Below the pieces are notes generated by a model, which ran no database searches, was not told the origin of the DNA, and saw only the letters and a program-made list of their open reading frames with translations. This document shows positions 1,953-37,960 of a stretch of 64,000 nucleotides of DNA, in pieces. Location of the stretch: the NCBI GenBank assembly GCA_963555825.3, contig CAUVXB020000002.1:2144001-2208000 (forward strand), given 5' to 3'. Position numbers and translations under genes: made by a program. This stretch comes from Alphaproteobacteria bacterium. GTDB taxonomy: Bacteria > Pseudomonadota > Alphaproteobacteria > JAAXGF01. Numbering within the stretch: position 1 is the first letter of the stretch; each line of letters opens with the position of its first letter.

Positions 1953-2717
1953 TCAGTTAGCAGTCGGGGTTTGACGCCTGCGGCTCTGGTTGAGCCTGTA
2001 GCTGTCACCGTTCATCTCGAGGATGTTGACGTGGTGGGTGAGGCGATCGAGGAGCGCGCCGGTGAGGCGCTCGGAGCCGAACACCTCGGTCCATTCGTCG
2101 AAGGGCAGATTGGTGGTGACCAGGGTCGAGCCCCGCTCGTAGCGTTGGCTGAACACCTCGAACAACAGCTCGGCGCCGGTCTTCGACAGCGGCACGAAGC
2201 CGAGTTCGTCGACGATCAGAAGCTTGTAGGTGGCGAGCTTCTTCTGGAACCTCAGCAGCTGCTTGTCATCGCGGGCCTCGATGAGTTCGTGGACCAGCGC
2301 GGCGGCGGTGATGAAGCCGACCGAGAGGCCCTTCTGGCAGGCCGCCAGGCCGAGACCGAGGGCGATGTGGGTCTTGCCGGTCCCACTGTTGCCGAGCGCG
2401 ATGAGGTTCTCGCGGCGCTCGATGTACTCGCAGCGGGCCAGCTCCAGGACCAGCGCCTTGTTGAGCGAGGGGATGACCTTGAAGTCGAAGCTGTCGAGGC
2501 TCTTGACCACGGGGAAGCGCGCCGCCTTGATGCGCCGCTCGACCATGCGGCGCTCGCGGTCGATCAGCTCGAGCTCGGCGAGTCTCAACAGGTAGCGGAC
2601 GTGATCGACGCCTTCCGAGGCGCACTGCCGGGCGATCTTGTCGTACTCGCGCAGGAAGGTCGGCAGCTTCAGCGTCTTGAGGTGGTGGGCGAGCAGCACT
2701 TGCGGTGTGTCGGTCAT
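1953..2717 (-). CDS. istB: IS21 helper ATPase
   Basis: Walker A GNSGTGKT, Walker B LLIVDELG, ALLDRLTHH. Confidence 0.95.
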   Translation of the reverse strand: MTDTPQVLLAHHLKTLKLPTFLREYDKIARQCASEGVDHVRYLLRLAELELIDRERRMVERRIKAARFPVVKSLDSFDFKVIPSLNKALVLELARCEYIERRENLIALGNSGTGKTHIALGLGLAACQKGLSVGFITAAALVHELIEARDDKQLLRFQKKLATYKLLIVDELGFVPLSKTGAELLFEVFSQRYERGSTLVTTNLPFDEWTEVFGSERLTGALLDRLTHHVNILEMNGDSYRLNQSRRRQTPTAN

Positions 2718-3399
2718 GCGCCGAGCCCCGACAGCAGGCTCATGTACGACTTGGCGGACGTCATCGCGACCCGGGCGCGCGGCAGATACGGATAGACGTC
2801 GAGGTTGAGCCTGGGCGGCCGCCGCTCGATGCGGCACAGTACCAGGTGCTTCACCGCATCAAAGCCGATTGCGCCGAGCCGCAGGGCGTCGCCGACCGCA
2901 CCCTCGACCTCCTCGAGCCGGAAGGTCTCCAGTAGACGGAGCACCTGGACGTACTCGCGCTTGCCTGCCTTGCCCATACGAGCTTCGAGGAGCCGCCGCA
3001 GAGTGATGAAGGCCTCGGGCAGGTCCCAGCCCGCCAATGGCGCGGCCTGGTCGAGGGCGCCGATCTTCTGCTCGATCAAGGGCAGGTAATGCAGCGGGTC
3101 GAAGATCAGGTCCTCGCTGTCGTAGGACCGGCGGTGCCGGGCGATCACCTCGGCCCCGCAGCTGATCACCACCTCATCGACGTAGCCCCGGATGAGCACC
3201 TCACGGTGGCCGTAGGCCACGGGCACGGAATAGTCGTTGCTGCGGTAACGCACCAGCGACAGCGAACTCGCCCGTCCAGGGCGCTTATCGCAGGCATCAT
3301 AGGGAGCAGGCGGCAATGGCAAGAGAACTTGACGATCCCGCTCGAGACGCTCGCCGATGGTCTCCTTATATGAGGCGTTTGCTGTCAAGGTGGATTTAA

Positions 3400-3682: not shown

Positions 3683-4816
3683 CTATTTGACGACAGCACC
3701 CACCGGGATCAGCCCGGTTTCCAGATACCGCCAAAGCGCGATCGCCAGTTTGCGGGCCAGGGCGACGATCATGACGCGCCTGATGCGCCCCTTCTGACCT
3801 TGGGTGCGGTCATGGAACCACTGGGTCAGAGCGCTATCGGGTTGATGGCGGACCCAAAGCCATGCGGCTTCGATCATGGCAACCCGTGCCAGCCGATTGC
3901 CCGCCTTGGAGATGCCTTGGCTGCGGCGCCCGTCGCCGCTGTCATAGGCACTGGGCGTGATCCCGATATAGCTTGCCACCTGTCGGCGATTGGCGAACTG
4001 GCGATAATAGACTTCCCGTGCGAGCGTCGTGGATAAGGCCGGGCCGAGGCCCTTTAAGCGCAGCAGCTGGTGACGCTTGCTTTCCGTGGCCACACACGGT
4101 GTCGGCGCTTGATCACGCTCACGCTCGACCTCGACGATCTGCGCTTGGACCTGGGCCAGTCTCGCGATCTCCCGCGCGATCTCGCGGCCGAGACGGTCCG
4201 GCAGGGGTCGGCCGTCTCCGGTGACCAGCGCCGCCGGTGTCAAGGTCTTGTAGCGCGCCTTGACATTGATGCCGCGAATGCCCTGACCGAATAGCAGACC
4301 CTTGATCCGGTTGATGTGGGCGGTTCGCTCGCGGACCAATCGGTCACGTTCCCGATGAGAGCGGCGAAGGTCCTCCTCCGCGACGCTCGGAATCACCACC
4401 ATGGAGCAGACATGACGCTCGCCGCGGCACCAGGCGATCAGCGTATGAAGAATATTCTCGACATCGATGCGGTCGGTCTTCACCCGCCGCGCCCGGCGGT
4501 TGACCCGCAAGCTGGCCGGCTCCATGACCAGACACTCGATGCCGCGCTGCTCGAGGAACCGCGCCAACCAGAAGCCGTCGTAGCCGGCCTCGTAGCACAG
4601 CGTTATCGTCGGCGTTCGACCCGTCACCTTGACCACCCGGTCCCGCGCCGCGTCCAGCTTGGCCATCAGTCCTTCAGCGTCGCCGCCCTTGATCGGATGC
4701 AAGCTCGGATTGCCCCGCCCCGGAGCCTGGATCGCCAAAAGCCAGCTGTTCTTGCTCAACTCCAGTGCCGCATAAATAGCGTGTTCATTGGAGGTCGATA
4801 CCGGAAACTGTGCCAT
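3683..4816 (-). CDS. IS110-family recombinase/transposase
   Basis: RuvC-like acidic motifs (ALELSK, CYEAG, KTDRID) and Tnp-domain YDSG / ISKAGN. Confidence 0.93.
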   Translation of the reverse strand: MAQFPVSTSNEHAIYAALELSKNSWLLAIQAPGRGNPSLHPIKGGDAEGLMAKLDAARDRVVKVTGRTPTITLCYEAGYDGFWLARFLEQRGIECLVMEPASLRVNRRARRVKTDRIDVENILHTLIAWCRGERHVCSMVVIPSVAEEDLRRSHRERDRLVRERTAHINRIKGLLFGQGIRGINVKARYKTLTPAALVTGDGRPLPDRLGREIAREIARLAQVQAQIVEVERERDQAPTPCVATESKRHQLLRLKGLGPALSTTLAREVYYRQFANRRQVASYIGITPSAYDSGDGRRSQGISKAGNRLARVAMIEAAWLWVRHQPDSALTQWFHDRTQGQKGRIRRVMIVALARKLAIALWRYLETGLIPVGAVVK

Positions 4817-5854
4817 CGTGTCGCTCCTTCTGATCGAGGTTGAAATAATCGAAGGAGCTTGAGGCTGCGTCCTTCAGCCTCATAGCATCTTGTGGCCCCG
4901 CAGCCGCGCCGCCTGGCGCCGGCGGCACTGTTCGGCGAGAGCATCGTTGAGGGCCGCGAAGCTCTCGGCACGCGGGACGGGGACCAGGAAGTTCCGCCGG
5001 ATGAAGCCGACCAGTCCCTCGACCTTGCCCTTGTCGTTGCCCTTGCCCGGCCGGCCGAACCTGTCCTCGAACAGATAGTGGGACTGAAGCTCCGTGAAGA
5101 CGCGCGTTCGCTGCCGCTTCCCATCGCCCAGGATCCGGGCAACCGCCAGCTTGGTGTTGTCGTATAGGATGGATCGGGGGACGCCGCCGAAGAAGGCAAA
5201 CGCCGCGTTGTGGCCATCGCAGAATGCTTCGGTCGTCTCCGCCGGATAGGCCGCAACAAAGCAACCATCACTGTGGGGAAGGTCGAAGGCAAGGAAGTGG
5301 ATCTTCCGTAACGCGCCGCCGATCACCGCCATCGCTTCGCCGAAGTCCGCCTGGGCGTGACCGGGGGAATGGGAGAGTGGCACGAACACCTCACGCGACC
5401 GAAGCCCCTGCTCACGAACGTAGTCCTTCACGATGGTGTAGCCGCCCGTGAAACCGTACTCGTCCCGGAGGCGGTCGAAGATGCGCTTCGCAGTGTGCCG
5501 TTGCTTGCGGTGGCTGGTCCGATCGTCTTCCAAGATCCGATCGATGATTCCCGTGAACGGACCCAGCTTTGGCCGCCTCGGCGGCGCGCTTCGGCGATAC
5601 CCTGGCGGCACCGAGAACGACAGCATCTTACGGACCGTCTTGCGGTCCACACCAAACACCCGCGAGGCCTCGCGGGTGCTCATCCCCTCGACATGACACG
5701 CCCGCCGAACCCGTGCGTACAACTCCACCCGATACATCCCCCCGCCTTCCAGTCAGAGCAACCCTGACAGAAGGCTATACGCGGTCCCATTTTGGTCCGC
5801 CGCAGCCGGATCGACCGGCCGCTTCAGTGGGGGATTATTGCTCTGCCGTTCTCA

Positions 5855-32770: not shown

Positions 32771-34456
32771 CAGCCTGTGTAAAAACGTCGATGGTGTTAT
32801 GATTCTCTCGTGCTTTGGCGGGAGGGTCTGATGAAGCGTTTTGTCGAGGGTGTCGATCGCAGCCAGGGCACGTTGTTTCCGGAGCGCCTGGAAGACTGGA
32901 TCGGCGACGACAACCCGGTTCGGGCGATCGACGTCTTCGTCGATGAGCTCGATCTTGGCGGCCTCGGGTTCGACCGGGTCGAGCCGCTGGCGACCGGCAG
33001 GCCGGCCTATCATCCTTGCGATTTGTTGAAGCTCTACATCTACGGCTATCTCAACCGGGTTCAGTCGAGCCGTCGGCTCGAGAGGGAGGCCGGGCGCAAT
33101 GTGGAAGTGATGTGGCTGGTCGGCCGGCTGGCGCCGGATCACAAGACGATCGCCGACTTCGGCCAAGGACAATGGTTCTGCGATCCGCCAGGTCTGTGCC
33201 CAGTTCATCGCCCTGTGCCGCCAACTGGGGCTGTTTGCCGAGGCGAGCGTGGCGATCGATGGCGCCAAGTTCAAGGCGGTCAACAGCCGGGACAGGAACT
33301 TCACGCGGGCCAAGATGGCGCGGCGGGTGGCGCAGATCGAGGAGAGCGTTGCGCGCTATCTGCAGCAACTCGACAGCGCCGACCGGCAAGAGCCGTCGCT
33401 GGCGCGCACGACCAAGACGACTCGTCTGGCCGACAAGATTGCGATCCTCAAGCAGGAGATGCGGCGCCTGAAGGCGCTTGAAGTCGAGCGGCGTGCGAGC
33501 CCGGACCAGCAGATCTCTCTGAGCGATCCCGATGCCCGCTCGATGGCGACGAGCGGCCGGGGTTCCGGCGTGGTGGGCTACAACGTTCAGGCCGCCGTCG
33601 ACACCAAGCATCACCTGATCGTTGCCCACGAGGTGACCAATCAGGGCACTGACCGCGCCCAGCTCTCAGCCATGGCGAAGCGGACCAAGGCGGCTCTGGA
33701 GACCGACGAGTTGGATGTCGTTGCCGATCGCGGCTACTACAACGGCAAGGAGATTCTGGCCTGCGATCAGGCCGGCATCACCGTCACGTTGCCTAAGCCG
33801 CTGACCTCTGGAGCCAAGGCCAAGGGCCGCTTCGGCAAACAGGACTTCGTCTATCTGGCCGCCGACGATGTCTATCGCTGCCCGGCCGGCGAGCGTTTGG
33901 TCTACCGCTTCACCAGCCAGGAGAGGGGGCTGAGCATGCGGCGCTACTGGACCAACGCCTGTCAGGGATGCGCCATCAAGCATCGCTGCACCACGGCCAA
34001 GCAGCGCCGCATCACCCGTTGGCAGCACGAACACATTCTCGAGGCCGTCGAGAGGCGGCTCGACGAGCACCCGGAGGCGATGCGTCGGCGGCGCGAGACG
34101 GCCGAGCATCCCTTCGGCACCCTCAAGGCCTGGATGGGCGCGACGCACTTCCAGATGAAGACGCTGAAGCGGGTGAGGACCGAGATGGCCTTGCACGTGC
34201 TGGCCTACAATCTCAAGCGCGTCATGAACATCATGGGCATCGACCCGCTGATCGCGGCGATCAGGACGGCATAGGCGCCCCTGCGCCGACAATTACGCCC
34301 ATACCCGGCCACATCGCGGCTCACAACGGCGCCAGCCGGCCGAAAAGCCCGCACGAGCGGCGAAAATCCATAATCCCGGAAAACACGTCCCGACTGATCA
34401 TCCAAACCCAAAGACGCGCCACACAGAAATAGCAGCAAACGTTCTCACACAGGCTG
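32771..34456 (+). mobile_element. IS1182-family element
   Basis: TIRs CAGCCTGTGTAAAAACGT / ACGTTCTCACACAGGCTG with a 4-bp duplication GACC. Confidence 0.92.
32831..34274 (+). pseudogene. IS1182 transposase, frameshifted near 33160
   Basis: GRPAYHP..LLKLYIYGY..PDHKTIADF, then in another frame AIDGAKFKA, ADRGY, EHPFGTLK. Confidence 0.88.
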
Positions 34457-34618
34457 GACCCTTAACAGACACGTTGCGGTGTGTGGGATATGACAAAACT
34501 TGCGGACCATGTGGCGTGGCCAACCCGTCCTCGGCCACGCGTAGCCCGGTTTGGGTGGAACGGTACGATCAAGCCTGCGCGAGACGTGGAGCATTCCGCT
34601 GCAAACTCGAAGCATTAG

Positions 34619-34771
34619 CTAACCATTCGTCATGATTTGAACGAATTGGTGGCAGAATTCTACTGCCTTCTCGAGTCTGAGCGTTTGCCAGATGTTCACT
34701 CCGATCAGAACTATGATCATCACAAAGAGCGCGATCTCAATATGTTTGTGAGGCATCGTCGTTTGAGCCAT
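34619..34771 (-). CDS. Small (50 aa) single-transmembrane orphan protein
   Basis: MAQTTMPHKHIEIALFVMIIVLIGVNIWQTLRLEKAVEFCHQFVQIMTNG, with a GGGGAAG RBS. Not in the ORF track (too short). Confidence 0.55.
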   Translation of the reverse strand: MAQTTMPHKHIEIALFVMIIVLIGVNIWQTLRLEKAVEFCHQFVQIMTNG

Positions 34772-34989
34772 TGATCTTCCCCCATTTGACCAAGATGTTC
34801 ACGATGAATTGCTGAGAAAGCCAACTCCATTGAACAATCATCCCACTGAGCGGGCCATGTATGCTAGCGATAGCATCTCAGTACACGTCTGAGAAAACGA
34901 AGAGCCCGTGACCCTACCCGAGTTGGGCAGGAATAATCCAGCTTCTCGCTCCCGCTCGAATGTCTTGTGTGGATGGCTCCCGCGTTGCA

Positions 34990-35228
34990 AGGACTTTTTT
35001 CGGCGTAGCGACCTAGTCAGGTACAGTCTTGTGTCCGGCCTGTTGATGCGGTTTTGTTGAACCGCTGGCCCTGATGGTATCCGTGGATCGGGTCCCTATC
35101 TGCTTAGCGGGCTCGAACACCCAGGACATTGGTCGGGTTGTCCCGATCCCCGGTCTGACCGGTTCGCCATCACGTCTCGTCGTCCTTGCAATCGTCGAAA
35201 GGCGTTGTGCCTTCGAGCGATCAATTGG
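34990..35228 (-). ncRNA. Predicted bridge/seek RNA of IS1111 element 2 (ends approximate)
   Basis: Target guides at 35125-35130 and 35100-35106 and donor guides at 35073-35077 and 35028-35034, each pair flanking a hairpin. Confidence 0.8.
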
Positions 35229-36263
35229 TCATGCGGTCTCCTCAGTTGCGGGTCGGTGAGCGCGGTAGGCCTCGCCACGGGTCATGATGACCCAGGCGAT
35301 CCGCGCGGCCTTGTTGGCCATGGCCACGGCGACCAGCTTGTTGGGCTTGCTTACCAGCAAGTTGGTGATCCAGGGGTGAACCTCGGGCTTGCGCCGTGCC
35401 GATTGAAGCTGTGATGTCATGCCGATCACCAGCAGACGGCGAAGATAGCGGTCCGCCATCTTGGAGATGCGTCCCATGCGATCCTTGCCGGCGCTGGAAT
35501 CGGCCTTGGGCGTTAGCCCGAGCGAGGCGGCAAACTGGCGAGCCGATGTGAACCGGTGCGGATCGGTGACCGAGGCCGCCAGCGCCGAGGCGGTGATGTA
35601 ACCAATCCCCGGAATGGTCGCGAGCCGTTTGGCCAGGTCGTTGCCGCGGAACCAGGTCTTGATCTCGCCCTCGATCATGGCGACCCGGGCTTGCAACTCG
35701 CGGATCTGCTCGGCCAGGGCAATGACGATCTTGCATGCCAGCGGGGGAATGTCCGGCACCACTCCTTCGACAAGCTGATCGACGAGCCTCAGCGCGTGAT
35801 GAATGCCTTTGGCCAGCACGATGCCCAACTCGGCCAGCTGGGACCGGATCATGTTGACCAGCTGGGTGCGCTGGCCGACCGGCAGATCCCGTGTTCGGTG
35901 GAGCGCCAGGACCGATTGCTGCTCGGCCGACTCGATCGCGACGAACCGCATCGTGGGGCGCGTCACCGCCTCGCAGATCGCCTCCGCATCGGCGGCGTCG
36001 GTCTTGCCGCGCTTGACGTATGGTTTGACGTAGATCGGTGGCATCAATTTCACCTCGTGCCCCAATGCCTGGAGCTCGCGGGACCAGAAGTGGCTCGTGC
36101 CGCACGCCTCGATACCGATCAGACACGGTTCCAGCTTGCCGAAGAACGGCATCATCTGGCGCCGGCGCAACGATCGGCGGACGATGACCTTGCCGGTGCT
36201 GTCAATGCCGTGGACTTGGAAAACGTTCTTGGCCAGATCGAGGCCGACAGTGGTAACTTTCAT
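35229..36263 (-). CDS. IS110-family recombinase/transposase
   Basis: GLDLAK, GIEAC, KTDAAD (DEDD), SSAGK and ISKM. Confidence 0.93.
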   Translation of the reverse strand: MKVTTVGLDLAKNVFQVHGIDSTGKVIVRRSLRRRQMMPFFGKLEPCLIGIEACGTSHFWSRELQALGHEVKLMPPIYVKPYVKRGKTDAADAEAICEAVTRPTMRFVAIESAEQQSVLALHRTRDLPVGQRTQLVNMIRSQLAELGIVLAKGIHHALRLVDQLVEGVVPDIPPLACKIVIALAEQIRELQARVAMIEGEIKTWFRGNDLAKRLATIPGIGYITASALAASVTDPHRFTSARQFAASLGLTPKADSSAGKDRMGRISKMADRYLRRLLVIGMTSQLQSARRKPEVHPWITNLLVSKPNKLVAVAMANKAARIAWVIMTRGEAYRAHRPATEETA

Positions 36264-36358
36264 GGCGGATAGCTCCTCTTGCTCGTGGTTGATAACAACC
36301 ACCACTTTGGCATCTCGGTGCCGGGAGCGGGAGCCATCCACCCCATCTGCTTATGGCC

Positions 36359-36519
36359 GAGGCTGTTGAAAAAGTCCCGAAACATCCATTTTGAGCCTGA
36401 ATTGGCCAATTCTCCGAAATCGGTGTTTTCCTAAGTCTTTGATTTCATTGAACTCGAATTCTCATTGGTTCCGGGAAATTGGCGAGTTTGGTTCCGCTAC
36501 CGACTTTTTCAACAGCCTC
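36359..36519. mobile_element. 161-bp MITE with IS5/IS1182-like ends
   Basis: Perfect 18-bp TIR GAGGCTGTTGAAAAAGTC. Flanks GGCC / GGCT. Confidence 0.8.
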
Positions 36520-36580
36520 GGCTATAAGCTGACGTTACGACGGATTGATCAGCATGTCCGGTTCCTGCTCGTAAGCGGAC
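36520..36580. repeat. REP-like double hairpin, right
   Basis: Right arm ATAAGCTGACGTT of the reconstructed hairpin AATGTCTGCTTAT-ggct-ATAAGCTGACGTT, then GTCCG-N15-CGGAC (36556-36580). Confidence 0.75.
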
Positions 36581-36586
36581 CCGGCG

Positions 36587-37099
36587 TCAGCCGTCGCCGT
36601 CCTCCGCCGAGATACAAATCCGGGTGGTTTCGTCGCACTCGGCCAGGATGGCCAGCAGGTCCTCTCGCGCGACGGTGACGCAGCCCTCGGTCGGGCCAAA
36701 GTCGGGCCGCGCGACGTGGAGGAAGATGGCGCTGCCCGCGCCGGGCACCACAGGATCGCCGTTGTGGGCCAGCGCCACGACCACGTCGTAGAGCGCATCG
36801 TCGCGCCACAGGGTCTCGGTGCCGGCGGCGTGAGCGCTGCGGACCAGCGTGTTGTACGCGACATCGGCCGGGTCGTCGCACCAGGCGTCCGCCGGGTCGG
36901 TAGCGCTCACCGGCAGGGCCGTTTCGGGCGGCGCACCGCGGTCGGGGCGGTAATAGACGCGGCGCAGCGCGAAGCAGCCGGCCGGCGTCGCGCCGTCGCC
37001 CTCGCGCTTGACGTCGGTCACGCCGGCGCGGCCGAGCGCGCAGCGCAGGCGCCGGCCGCGCCATTCCAGCGTGCCGTCGGCGCTCACCCGGATGTCCAT
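36587..37099 (-). CDS. L,D-transpeptidase family protein
   Basis: CALGR, KREGDGATP, GSAIFLH, PTEGCV. Confidence 0.88.
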   Translation of the reverse strand: MDIRVSADGTLEWRGRRLRCALGRAGVTDVKREGDGATPAGCFALRRVYYRPDRGAPPETALPVSATDPADAWCDDPADVAYNTLVRSAHAAGTETLWRDDALYDVVVALAHNGDPVVPGAGSAIFLHVARPDFGPTEGCVTVAREDLLAILAECDETTRICISAEDGDG

Positions 37100-37240
37100 G
37101 GCGCACGTCCCTCTCTGCCCGCCCGCCACCATCGGCGCGTGGCGGCGGCTGTCAAGTCCGCCGCGCGCGCCGCGCCATTCTATTCTGGCTGACCGACCCT
37201 ATATAACTGGGGTATAGACAGCGGGACCAGTGAGGGAGAC

Positions 37241-37960
37241 GTGACTGCAATGGTGTCGAGGGACCGATCGCCGACCATCGGCAAGCGCATTCTGATCGTC
37301 GACGATGACGATGCGTTGCGTCAATCGCTCGCCGAACAGCTCGAGCTGCACGAGGAATTCGAGATCGGCGTGGCGGCGACCGGCGGCGACGCGCTCCAGG
37401 CGGTCAAGTCGCTGCGCTACGACATCGTGCTGCTCGACGTCGGCCTGCCCGACATCGACGGCCGCGAGCTGTGCAAGGTGATGCGCCGGGGCGGCCACAA
37501 GATGCCGATCATCATGCTGACCGCCGCCGACACCGATTCGGACACCATCTTGGGCCTCGAATCGGGCGCCAACGATTACGTCGCCAAGCCGTTCCGGCTC
37601 GGCGTCCTGCTCGCCCGCATGCGCGCCCAGCTGCGCCAGCACGAGCGGAGCGAGGACGCGGTTTTCTCGATCGGCCCCTACACCTTCCGGCCGAGCGCCA
37701 AGCTGCTCGTCGAGCCCGACAGCAACCGCAAGATCCGTCTGACCGAGAAGGAGACGGCGATCCTCAAATATCTCTACCGCGCGGGCGACAAGGTGGTCGC
37801 GCGCGAGGTGCTGCTCGACGAGGTCTGGGGCTACAACGCCGGCGTCGCGACCCATACGCTCGAGACACATATCTACCGGCTGCGCCAGAAGATCGAGCGC
37901 GACCCGAGCGACGCCGTCCTGCTGCTCACCGAACCCGGCGGCTACCGCCTGGCGCCTTGA
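37241..37960 (+). CDS. OmpR-family response regulator
   Basis: ILIVDDD, LLDVGLPD, DYVAKPF and winged helix LETHIYRLRQK. Confidence 0.93.
   Translation: MTAMVSRDRSPTIGKRILIVDDDDALRQSLAEQLELHEEFEIGVAATGGDALQAVKSLRYDIVLLDVGLPDIDGRELCKVMRRGGHKMPIIMLTAADTDSDTILGLESGANDYVAKPFRLGVLLARMRAQLRQHERSEDAVFSIGPYTFRPSAKLLVEPDSNRKIRLTEKETAILKYLYRAGDKVVAREVLLDEVWGYNAGVATHTLETHIYRLRQKIERDPSDAVLLLTEPGGYRLAP

What the first reader, a model, noticed from the sequence alone, without database searches (positions are those of the whole stretch)
34964..36348. Second, divergent IS1111 with the same four-guide RNA layout, targeting a REP-like hairpin
Seen: the empty site is GAATGT-CT-GCTTATGG and the donor junction is CCCCAT-CT-TGTGTGG. 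The non-coding region holds AAUGUC (35130-35125) and UAAGCAG (35106-35100) around a GGGU/GCCC hairpin, closed by GGATCGGG/CCCGATCC. It then holds CCAUC (35077-35073) and ACACAAG (35034-35028) around a GCGGTT/AACCGC hairpin. Finding the same order and polarity in two elements with different sequences makes chance matching unlikely, and gives two candidate orthogonal systems in one genome.
Basis: partly seen in the sequence, partly recalled or inferred. Interest (0 to 1): 0.78.

Follow-up and report, generated by a model that had tools for sequence, protein, structure and literature searches.

The report
IS1111-type insertion sequence with bridge RNA
This is an intact but ordinary jumping gene of the IS110/IS1111 family whose tail encodes a small guide RNA matching both its insertion site and its own ends, as already described for this family.

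Summary
Window 34966-36348 (minus strand) is a 1383-bp IS110-family element of the IS1111 group. It has a 344-aa DEDD/Ser transposase, 15-bp subterminal inverted repeats, a CT at both junctions and a 263-nt non-coding region (NCR) downstream of the gene. The genome holds five copies at four independent sites, all beside AATGTC.

The NCR folds into two internal-loop modules. Across 52 relatives, 96.4% of cells pair and 15 of 34 pairs show compensatory changes. Both target guides covary with the flanks in 55 relatives (0 of 5000 permutations reach the observed match). The right donor guide tracks the element's right end in 61 of 61 cases.

The fourth guide, CCAUC, is the weak one. It is 5 nt long, and it also pairs inside the RNA with UGAUGG about 100 nt upstream.

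The target motif is an arm of a REP-like palindrome family. At this copy it lies on the edge of a MITE's terminal repeat.

Verdict: a new member of a known kind (bridge RNA / seekRNA). Side observations worth a look are an asymmetric junction core, the masked donor guide, and three orthogonal families tiling one motif.

The parts
34966..36348 (-). Whole insertion sequence, 1383 bp counting one copy of the CT core. It is one of five copies in the genome that are 99-100% identical.
34964..34965 (.). Core dinucleotide CT at the RE-side junction. It reads CC in two of the four independent copies.
36347..36348 (.). Core dinucleotide CT at the LE-side junction. It reads CT in all five copies.
35229..36263 (-). 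Transposase, 344 aa. It matches PF01548 and PF02371, and NCBIfam NF033542 at 319.6 bits. Catalytic candidates are D9, E52, D89, D92 and S257.
36327..36341 (.). Subterminal inverted repeat at the left end (GCGGGAGCCATCCAC on the + strand), followed by the 5-nt extension CCCAT (36342-36346).
34969..34983 (.). Subterminal inverted repeat at the right end (GTGGATGGCTCCCGC on the + strand), preceded by the 3-nt extension TGT (34966-34968).
34985..35191 (-). Predicted long bridge/seek RNA region, closed by the long-range helix UUGCAAGGAC (35191-35182) / GUCCUUGCAA (34994-34985).
35142..35149 (-). 5' strand (GGAUCGGG) of the stem that closes the target-binding loop. Its partner is CCCGAUCC at 35085-35092.
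   Evidence: 5 of 8 pairs with compensatory changes
35124..35132 (-). Left target guide CCAAUGUCC. It has the same sequence as the + strand AATGTC(C) next to the element, so it pairs with the other strand.
35109..35122 (-). Central hairpin of the target loop (GGGU GUUCGA GCCC).
   Evidence: 3 of 4 pairs compensatory
35098..35106 (-). Right target guide UAAGCAG plus the handshake bases AU. Its reverse complement, ATCTGCTTA, is the integrated right junction at 36345-36353.
35072..35077 (-). CCAUCA. It is alternatively the 3' strand of a helix with UGAUGG.
35167..35172 (-). UGAUGG. This RNA segment has the same sequence as the left-end DNA (core G + ATGG) and is predicted to pair with CCAUCA.
35048..35065 (-). 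Central hairpin of the donor loop (GCGGUU CAACAA AACCGC), flanked by the GGCC/GGCC stem (35067-35070 / 35037-35040).
   Evidence: 4 of 6 pairs compensatory
35026..35034 (-). Right donor guide ACACAAG plus the handshake bases AC. Its reverse complement, GTCTTGTGT, is the integrated left junction at 34962-34970.
36349..36529 (.). MITE-like palindromic element with 28-bp terminal repeats at 36349-36376 and 36502-36529. The insertion site lies on its outer edge.

Best explanation
This is an intact, probably active IS1111-group member of the IS110 family. Its 3' non-coding end encodes a structured RNA of about 200 nt of the bridge RNA / seekRNA kind.

How it is built (shown here by sequence and comparison):
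- The first internal loop holds two guides. One pairs with one strand of the left half of the target AATGT-C(C/T)-GCTTA. The other pairs with the opposite strand of the right half.
- The second loop holds a guide for the element's right end, ACACA + core.
- It probably also holds a short guide for the left end, (G)ATGG.
- Each 3' guide is extended by two handshake bases that fit the recombined junction.

How it most likely works (inferred by analogy with IS621 and ISEc11):
- The DEDD/Ser transposase, bound to this RNA, synapses the excised circle junction CCCCAT-CT-TGTGTGG with the target.
- It exchanges strands at the core dinucleotide.
- The element lands in one orientation, without a target duplication.

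The target motif is an arm of a REP-like palindrome. The same motif also forms the outer edge of the terminal repeats of a MITE and of IS1182-family elements in this genome.
For: Family membership:
- Pfam PF01548 + PF02371.
- NF033542 'IS110 family RNA-guided transposase', 319.6 bits against a cutoff of 140.
- The C-terminal domain aligns to the IS621 and ISCro4 structures, with S257 opposite the catalytic Ser.
- 15-bp subterminal repeats and a long downstream NCR.

Copies and sites:
- Five copies at four independent sites, all with AATGTC on one side.

RNA structure:
- The single-sequence fold has z = -4.18.
- On 52 sequences, 96.4% of cells pair against 22-44% when partners are slid. 15 of 34 pairs show changes on both sides. 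0 of 500 shuffles reach the observed values.
- RNAalifold recovers the same helices independently.
- Many G-U pairs exist only on the transposase-sense strand.

Guides:
- In 55 non-redundant relatives, guide 1 matches its own flank at 303 of 385 positions against 240 +/- 6 when flanks are permuted.
- Guide 2 matches at 267 of 330 against 214 +/- 6. In both cases 0 of 5000 permutations reach the observed value.
- The result holds after collapsing to 31 guide classes.
- The right donor guide follows the right-end triplet in 61 of 61 cases (36 ACA, 25 AGA).
- The donor-loop handshake bases equal the first two target bases in 55 of 61.
- Families B and C in the same genome have different ends, cores (TG, TA) and targets, with correspondingly changed guides.

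Literature:
- The order of the two target matches is the one reported for IS1111 seekRNAs (PMC11187229, sections read).
Against: - No direct evidence that the RNA is made or bound. Contigs of four metatranscriptome runs cover the non-coding region, but that does not prove transcription.
- Rfam gave no match.
- The promoter scan found nothing on the minus strand inside the element.
- The left donor guide is only 5 nt. The same bases are predicted to pair within the RNA: 99.7% of cells pair and two pairs are compensatory.
- For ISEc11, a short 82-nt seekRNA was sufficient for transposition. By its size it probably lacks a second loop, but I could not see the figure. This means the donor loop may not be needed in IS1111 elements (PMC11187229).
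- One of the four sites matches the right target guide at only 1 of 5 positions.
- The window copy's own left target guide matches its own site at only 7 of 9 positions.
Confidence: 0.9

Rival explanations
1. Only the first module works as a guide, as a short seekRNA of about 105 nt running from UGAUGG to CCAUCA. In this reading CCAUCA is simply the 3' strand of that module's terminal stem. The ends are recognised by the protein through the subterminal repeats. The second loop belongs to a precursor, or long form, of unknown role.
For: - The UGAUGG/CCAUCA helix is 99.7% paired with two compensatory pairs.
- It encloses a module of about the size of the published 70-100-nt seekRNAs.
- The short seekRNA was sufficient for ISEc11, and the role of the long form is stated to be unknown (PMC11187229).
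Against: - ACACAAG covaries with the right end in 61 of 61 cases, with the core in families B and C, and with the first two target bases in 55 of 61. A protein-only recognition of ends does not explain this.
- The second loop mirrors the first in shape.
- A 48%-identical relative has UUCCAU matching its own left end, ATGGAA, beyond the stem bases (read by eye).
Confidence: 0.15
2. The repeated words act as DNA. The internal copies of the junction sequences (ATCTGCTTA, GTCTTGTGT) are protein-binding or alternative recombination sites, and no RNA is involved.
For: - Each 3' guide with its handshake bases is an exact 9-bp copy of an integrated junction.
- Related families show tandem reiteration of right-end segments.
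Against: - The helices are kept through compensatory changes and G-U pairs that are strand-specific. This points to a folded RNA of the transposase-sense strand.
- The experimental literature for the family shows an RNA that co-purifies with the transposase (PMC11187229 abstract).
Confidence: 0.03
3. The matches are due to chance, in an element that is no longer mobile.
For: CCAUC alone is common by chance: it appears in 50,231 of 200,000 shuffles.
Against: - 0 of 200,000 shuffles hold all four words.
- Permutation tests give 0 of 5000.
- Five copies are 99-100% identical, each with a full-length reading frame.
Confidence: 0.01

Closest known systems
seekRNA-guided IS1111 elements ISEc11, ISPa11, ISKpn4, ISPst6 (Siddiquee et al. 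2024, PMC11187229; abstract and sections 6, 9, 10, 13, 14 read)
   Same: - Transposase within the 330-350 aa range, subterminal inverted repeats and a long non-coding region downstream of the gene.
- The RNA has two short matches to opposite strands of the target, with the top-strand complement 5' of the bottom-strand complement.
- Natural re-targeting occurs among relatives.
   Different: - Different target (AATGTCYGCTTA).
- Here comparative data also support a donor-side guide and handshake bases. The parts of that paper that I read do not describe these.
- I could not see its figures or supplements, which may show them.
IS621 bridge RNA (Durrant et al. 2024, PMC11208160, passages read; Hiraizumi et al. 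2024, PMC11208158, passages read)
   Same: - Two pseudo-symmetric internal loops, target then donor. Each has a 5' guide for one strand, a central hairpin and a 3' guide for the other strand.
- Handshake bases lie 3' of the 3' guides.
- The core is CT, and the enzyme is a DEDD + Ser recombinase.
   Different: - The RNA lies at the right end and is antisense to the CT strand as seen from the gene, which is the IS1111 arrangement.
- The subterminal repeats are long.
- The second core base often differs between target (C) and donor (T).
- The left donor guide is short and is paired to an internal mimic.
- By phmmer, only the C-terminal domain aligns to IS621.
IS4321/IS5075, IS1111-group elements that insert into the terminal repeats of Tn21-family transposons (title of Partridge and Hall 2003 seen in reference lists; one IS4321 copy read here, L111)
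   Same: - They target the terminal inverted repeat of another mobile element.
- In L111 the same layout is seen by eye. AAAACGGAA is the complement of the right flank, and AUAGAUUC equals the right end plus the flank.
- A UGAUGA/UCAUCA pair is also present.
   Different: 35% protein identity, and a different target and different hosts.
ISPpu9/ISPpu10 of Pseudomonas putida (Pares-Guillen et al. 2025, PMC12288879, abstract and outline read)
   Same: - IS110-family elements inserted in REP sequences.
- Separate copies of the RNA-bearing module occur elsewhere in the genome.
   Different: - In ISPpu9 the Ssr9 RNA was not required for transposition.
- Here the orphan modules include the last ~70 codons of the transposase gene and carry a duplicated target loop.

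Membership tests
IS110 family, IS1111 group | Transposase with an N-terminal DEDD (RuvC-like) domain and a C-terminal PF02371 domain carrying the catalytic Ser | tested here: met
   - PF01548 at 4.3e-15 and PF02371 at 7.5e-23.
- NF033542 at 319.6 bits.
- S257 aligns to the IS621 serine, and D89 and D92 align to the IS621 KTD..D motif.
- D9 and E52 are assigned from motifs only.
IS110 family, IS1111 group | Subterminal inverted repeats of 7-17 bp, set in from the ends | tested here: met
   The 15-bp repeat GTGGATGGCTCCCGC / GCGGGAGCCATCCAC lies 3 nt and 5 nt inside the two ends.
IS110 family, IS1111 group | The longer non-coding region lies downstream of the transposase gene | tested here: met
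   263 nt downstream (34966-35228) against 83 nt upstream (36264-36346).
IS110 family, IS1111 group | Sequence-specific, orientation-specific insertion without a target duplication beyond the shared core | tested here: met
   Four independent sites lie in the same orientation relative to AATGTC, with only the dinucleotide repeated. 55 relatives show the same pattern.
Bridge RNA / seekRNA | Conserved secondary structure with guide-bearing internal loops | tested here: met
   96.4% of cells pair and 15 of 34 pairs are compensatory. RNAalifold agrees.
Bridge RNA / seekRNA | Two target guides that pair with opposite strands of the two target halves and covary with them | tested here: met
   Permutation tests give 0 of 5000 for both guides, on 55 elements and on 31 guide classes.
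Bridge RNA / seekRNA | Donor guides that covary with the element's ends | tested here: inconclusive
   - The right donor guide is concordant in 61 of 61 cases.
- The left donor guide is only 5 nt. It changes together with the left end between clade A and families B/C.
- It also pairs with an internal UGAUGG.
Bridge RNA / seekRNA | Handshake bases 3' of the 3' guides that fit the recombined junction | tested here: met
   - Donor loop: both bases agree in 55 of 61.
- Target loop: the first base is A opposite the left end's A in 58 of 61, and both bases agree in 5 of 61, including this element.
Bridge RNA / seekRNA | The RNA is transcribed, bound by the transposase and required for transposition | not testable with these tools
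   There are only contigs from RNA libraries covering the region. These do not show a transcript, a strand or RNA ends.
Rfam families | A match to a curated covariance model | tested here: not met
   No match at E <= 1 in 34000-37500. This says nothing against the RNA, because a family must have been curated to be found.

The most novel reading that the evidence does not exclude
In this IS1111 clade the RNA may encode direction, and not only address. Three observations point that way.

1. The 5' target guide reads the substrate core (CC in 42 of 55). Both 3' guides, with their handshake bases, read the donor's CT and the recombined junctions.

2. Natural insertions keep the target's base at the right-end junction (37 of 55 differ from the donor) and the donor's base at the left-end junction (53 of 55). 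Random segregation of a 2-nt heteroduplex core would not give this.

3. The left donor guide is held in a helix with an RNA copy of the left end. This helix covaries three ways (RNA mimic, guide, DNA end). It could act as a gate that opens only on donor engagement.
Probability: 0.2. Interest if true: 0.55.

Novelty: new member of a known kind. Interest (0 to 1): 0.3.

Why it matters
RNA-guided IS110/IS1111 recombinases are being developed as genome-insertion tools. This element adds one more natural system with a clearly readable code, so on that count it is ordinary.

Its value is comparative. The clade offers about 55 natural re-targetings and three co-resident families with distinct cores (CT, TG, TA). 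Together these give sequence-level support for a donor loop and handshake bases in the IS1111 group. Published experiments on that group showed that a short target-only RNA can suffice.

The core asymmetry and the masked donor guide are testable hints about how these enzymes handle unequal cores and how they set directionality.

Tried and rejected
- **Rfam**: no match.
- **Promoter and terminator scan**: nothing on the minus strand within the element. A junction promoter TTGCAA-17-CAAGAT across the circle junction is only my reading of the sequence (7 of 12 matches) and is not supported by any tool.
- **Chance control:** the dinucleotide-preserving shuffle timed out, so I used mononucleotide shuffles instead.
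- **RNA evidence**: all runs are kept as contigs. Contigs show presence in four RNA libraries, including two contigs identical to the window in run X17. They do not show transcription, strand or RNA ends. I make no claim from the depth figures.
- **Alternative core 'TC', one base to the left:** rejected. It predicts a constant base at the right-end junction and a target-derived base at the left-end junction, which is the opposite of what is seen. The C/T state of this genome's copies also disagrees with their other shared differences.
- **Alternative helix GGCGA/UCGCU:** only 71.5% paired, so it ranks below UGAUGG/CCAUCA.
- **Helix ACGG/CUGU closing the donor loop:** 97.1% paired, but its one compensatory pair comes only from this genome's four copies. 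It cannot form in a nested structure together with UGAUGG/CCAUCA. Which of the two forms is undecided.
- **Orphan right-end modules:** I looked for a target-like site at their left boundary and found none that fits. Two of the three are one segmental duplication.
- **Families D to H:** not analysed.
- **Supplements and figures:** I could not see any. Supplementary Figs 6-9 of PMC11187229 and Extended Data Fig. 10 of PMC11208160 may already show donor-side matches or the terminal stem for IS1111 elements.
- **Novelty of the side observations:** I did not search the literature for the core asymmetry or the masked guide, so I do not claim that they are unpublished.

**Rows dropped before counts**
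- Of 94 sequences (80 loci and 14 from this genome), 16 lacked one of the two repeat motifs.
- The stricter spacing and flank-length rule left 65, of which 61 are non-redundant.
- The six B/C rows were left out of the permutation test because their guide-1 columns are shifted by one.
- L082 was kept, although its left side is mis-assigned.
Full report
**What is there**

Window 34964-36348 holds a 1383-bp insertion sequence on the minus strand, bounded by CT on both sides.

- A 344-aa reading frame at 36263-35229 matches Pfam PF01548 (DEDD transposase) and PF02371.
- It also matches NCBIfam NF033542, 'IS110 family RNA-guided transposase', at 319.6 bits against a cutoff of 140.
- Its C-terminal domain aligns to the solved IS621 and ISCro4 recombinases. 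S257 lies opposite the catalytic serine, and D89/D92 lie opposite the KTD..D motif. D9 and E52 are assigned from motifs only.
- The 15-bp inverted repeat GTGGATGGCTCCCGC / GCGGGAGCCATCCAC lies 3 nt and 5 nt inside the ends.
- The long non-coding region (NCR, 263 nt, 35228-34966) lies downstream of the gene.

These are the defining features of the IS1111 group as listed in PMC11187229 (section 6) and PMC11208160.

**The observation**

None of 200,000 mononucleotide shuffles of the non-coding region contains all four words. CCAUC alone is common by chance.

**Other copies**

The genome (2 contigs, 6.04 Mb) holds five copies at 99-100% identity. All five have full-length frames. Two copies share flanks, so there are four independent sites.

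- All four sites have AATGTC on the right-end side.
- On the other side, GCTTA is matched at 5, 4, 3 and 1 of 5 positions.
- There are 22 unoccupied AATGTC[CT]GCT sites.

**RNA structure**

- The non-coding region folds with z = -4.18.
- I fetched 80 relatives (60-92% protein identity, almost all Alphaproteobacteria) and aligned 52 distinct non-coding regions.
- For a seven-helix model, 96.4% of cells pair against 22-44% with partners slid. 15 of 34 pairs change on both sides. 0 of 500 shuffles reach the observed values.
- RNAalifold recovers these helices on its own and adds a long-range helix, UGCGAG/CUUGCA, that closes the whole region.
- Frequent G-U pairs fit only the transposase-sense strand.

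The result is two pseudo-symmetric modules. Each is an internal loop with a central hairpin, as in IS621 (PMC11208158).

**Guides**

In the CT orientation (window + strand), the target is GAATGT-CT-GCTTATGG and the donor junction is CCCCAT-CT-TGTGTGG.

- The 5' target guide, CCAAUGUCC, has the sequence of the + strand left half. The 3' target guide, UAAGCAG, is complementary to the + strand right half.
- In 55 non-redundant relatives, guide 1 matches its own flank at 303 of 385 positions. Guide 2 matches at 267 of 330.
- With flanks permuted, the figures are 240 +/- 6 and 214 +/- 6. No permutation of 5000 reaches the observed values. The result holds for 31 guide classes.
- Examples read: UCAAC, UAACC, UUAGC and UGAGU variants of guide 2 lie beside TCAAC, TAACC, TTAGC and TGAGT flanks.
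- The right donor guide follows the right-end triplet in 61 of 61 cases.
- Families B (core TG) and C (core TA) of the same genome carry ACACAUGGC and ACACAUAGC, matching their own ends and targets.

- UAAGCAG is followed by AU. The 9-mer is the exact complement of the integrated right junction ATCTGCTTA.
- ACACAAG is followed by AC, giving the left junction GTCTTGTGT.
- The donor-loop handshake equals the first two target bases in 55 of 61. The target-loop handshake agrees at its first base in 58 of 61, and at both bases in only 5 of 61.

This matches the handshake guides of IS621 (PMC11208158).

**The weak guide**

CCAUC is complementary to G+ATGG of the left end. RNAalifold instead pairs CCAUCA with UGAUGG about 100 nt upstream.

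- That helix is 99.7% paired. Two of its pairs change on both sides in families B and C (UAAUGC/GCAUUA), whose left ends also differ.
- So the upstream strand, the guide and the DNA end covary together.
- The helix encloses about 105 nt, near the size of the 70-100-nt short seekRNA. That short RNA was sufficient for ISEc11, while the role of the long form is unknown (PMC11187229).
- In a 48%-identical relative, UUCCAU matches its own left end ATGGAA beyond the stem. An IS4321 copy shows CUCAU opposite ATGAG (read by eye).

I therefore keep 'guide', 'stem strand' and 'masked guide' all open.

**The target**

- The genome has a palindrome family GTCYGCTT-N9-AAGCRGAC, with 38 exact instances. Spacing 13 accounts for 37 of 111 loose matches.
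- The element inserts inside the arm, at GT^CY^GCTT.
- In 10 of 55 relatives the rebuilt empty site has its reverse complement (9 or more of 12 nt) 13-18 nt away. This is the same kind of hairpin (I counted these from the output and excluded L082).
- The window copy is different. Its half-site is the outer edge of the 28-bp terminal repeat of a 181-bp MITE-like element (36349-36529). The partner arm, AACGTCAGCTTAT, lies at the other end.
- A second copy sits on the edge of an IS1182-like terminal repeat.

**Core asymmetry (unexplained)**

In element orientation:
- The left-end junction reads AG in 53 of 55.
- The right-end junction reads GG in 37 and AG in 18.
- The palindromes have R at that position.
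- The nearly identical copies of this genome differ there.

The right-end junction therefore seems to keep the target's base, and the left-end junction the donor's. The 5' target guide reads GG in 42 of 55, while both 3' guides read AG. Random segregation of a 2-nt heteroduplex would not give this pattern. The mechanism is not shown.

**Expression**

Contigs of four metatranscriptome runs from four studies cover the element. Two contigs in run X17 are identical to the window across 34900-35130 and 35132-35398. This shows presence in RNA libraries only.

**Verdict**

This is a real, intact IS1111-group element with a bridge/seek RNA: a new member of a known kind. Durrant et al. state that they predicted bridge RNAs in 93.0% of IS1111 elements. 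Siddiquee et al. showed the mechanism experimentally for four of them (abstract). The interest lies mainly in the comparative side observations.

Noticed in passing
window 34964-34965 and 36347-36348; relatives L034-L110: The junction core is asymmetric. In element orientation, the left-end junction is AG in 53 of 55 relatives. The right-end junction is GG in 37 and AG in 18. This follows the R of the target palindrome. The 5' target guide reads GG in 42 of 55, while both 3' guides read AG.
   Followed up: partly
window 35167-35172 with 35072-35077: UGAUGG is an RNA copy of the left-end DNA, and it pairs with the putative left donor guide CCAUCA. The pairing holds in 99.7% of cells. It is compensated in families B and C, whose left ends differ. 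Similar pairs are seen by eye in an IS4321 copy (L111) and in L112.
   Followed up: partly
L006 (G000:C1:1262874-1263400), L007 (C1:945995-946514), L009 (C1:1714258-1714799): These are three orphan right-end modules; L006 and L009 are one segmental duplication. Each starts at about codon 272 of the transposase gene. Each carries a 42-nt tandem duplication of the target loop. The duplication joint reads AAGC-GG-ACAAC, which resembles the element's own target AAGC-RG-ACATT. Their origin is not explained.
   Followed up: partly
L011, L012, L014, L015 (family B copies, e.g. G000:C2:2096599-2099389): Family B elements (56% protein identity) carry tandem reiterations of right-end segments. The units are about 134, 94-98 and 296 bp, and their number differs between copies.
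   Followed up: no
G000 family A, B and C sites; window 36349-36365: Three IS1111-type families insert at different points of one ~25-nt motif. Family A inserts at AATGT^CT^GCTTA. Family B inserts at GCTTA^TG^GC. Family C inserts at GCTCA^TA^GCCGAGG. Each family has its own guides and core.
   Followed up: partly
G000 family C copies (C2:526848, 1013315, 1017307, 1067099, 2451901): Some family C copies share only the ~1045-bp gene region. In one pair the 1.15 kb downstream of the gene is inverted relative to the gene.
   Followed up: no
window 35124-35132 and the other four copies: The five near-identical copies differ in the 5' target guide. It reads CCAAUGUCC in two copies, CGAAUGUCC in one and CGAACGUCC in two. 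Some sites fit another copy's guide better than their own, as expected if the RNA acts in trans.
   Followed up: partly
window about 32775-34440: An IS1182-family element lies about 500 bp from the finding. The frame at 33249-34274 matches NF033551 at 282.7 bits. About 20 ends of this kind in the genome are preceded at a fixed distance by a GTCTGC-like motif, as are the MITE ends.
   Followed up: partly
window 36349-36529: A MITE-like palindromic element with 28-bp terminal repeats. The genome holds 13 ends of this kind, as five pairs and three single ends. One end carries a family B insertion.
   Followed up: partly
window 3683-4816 (minus strand), with 2714-3388 and 4880-5737: This is the other IS110-family transposase of the window: 377 aa, NF033542 at 204.4 bits, 27.5% identical to this one, with about 15 similar tblastn hits in the genome. 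The frames on either side look to me like halves of an IS21-type istA gene; I did not test this.
   Followed up: no
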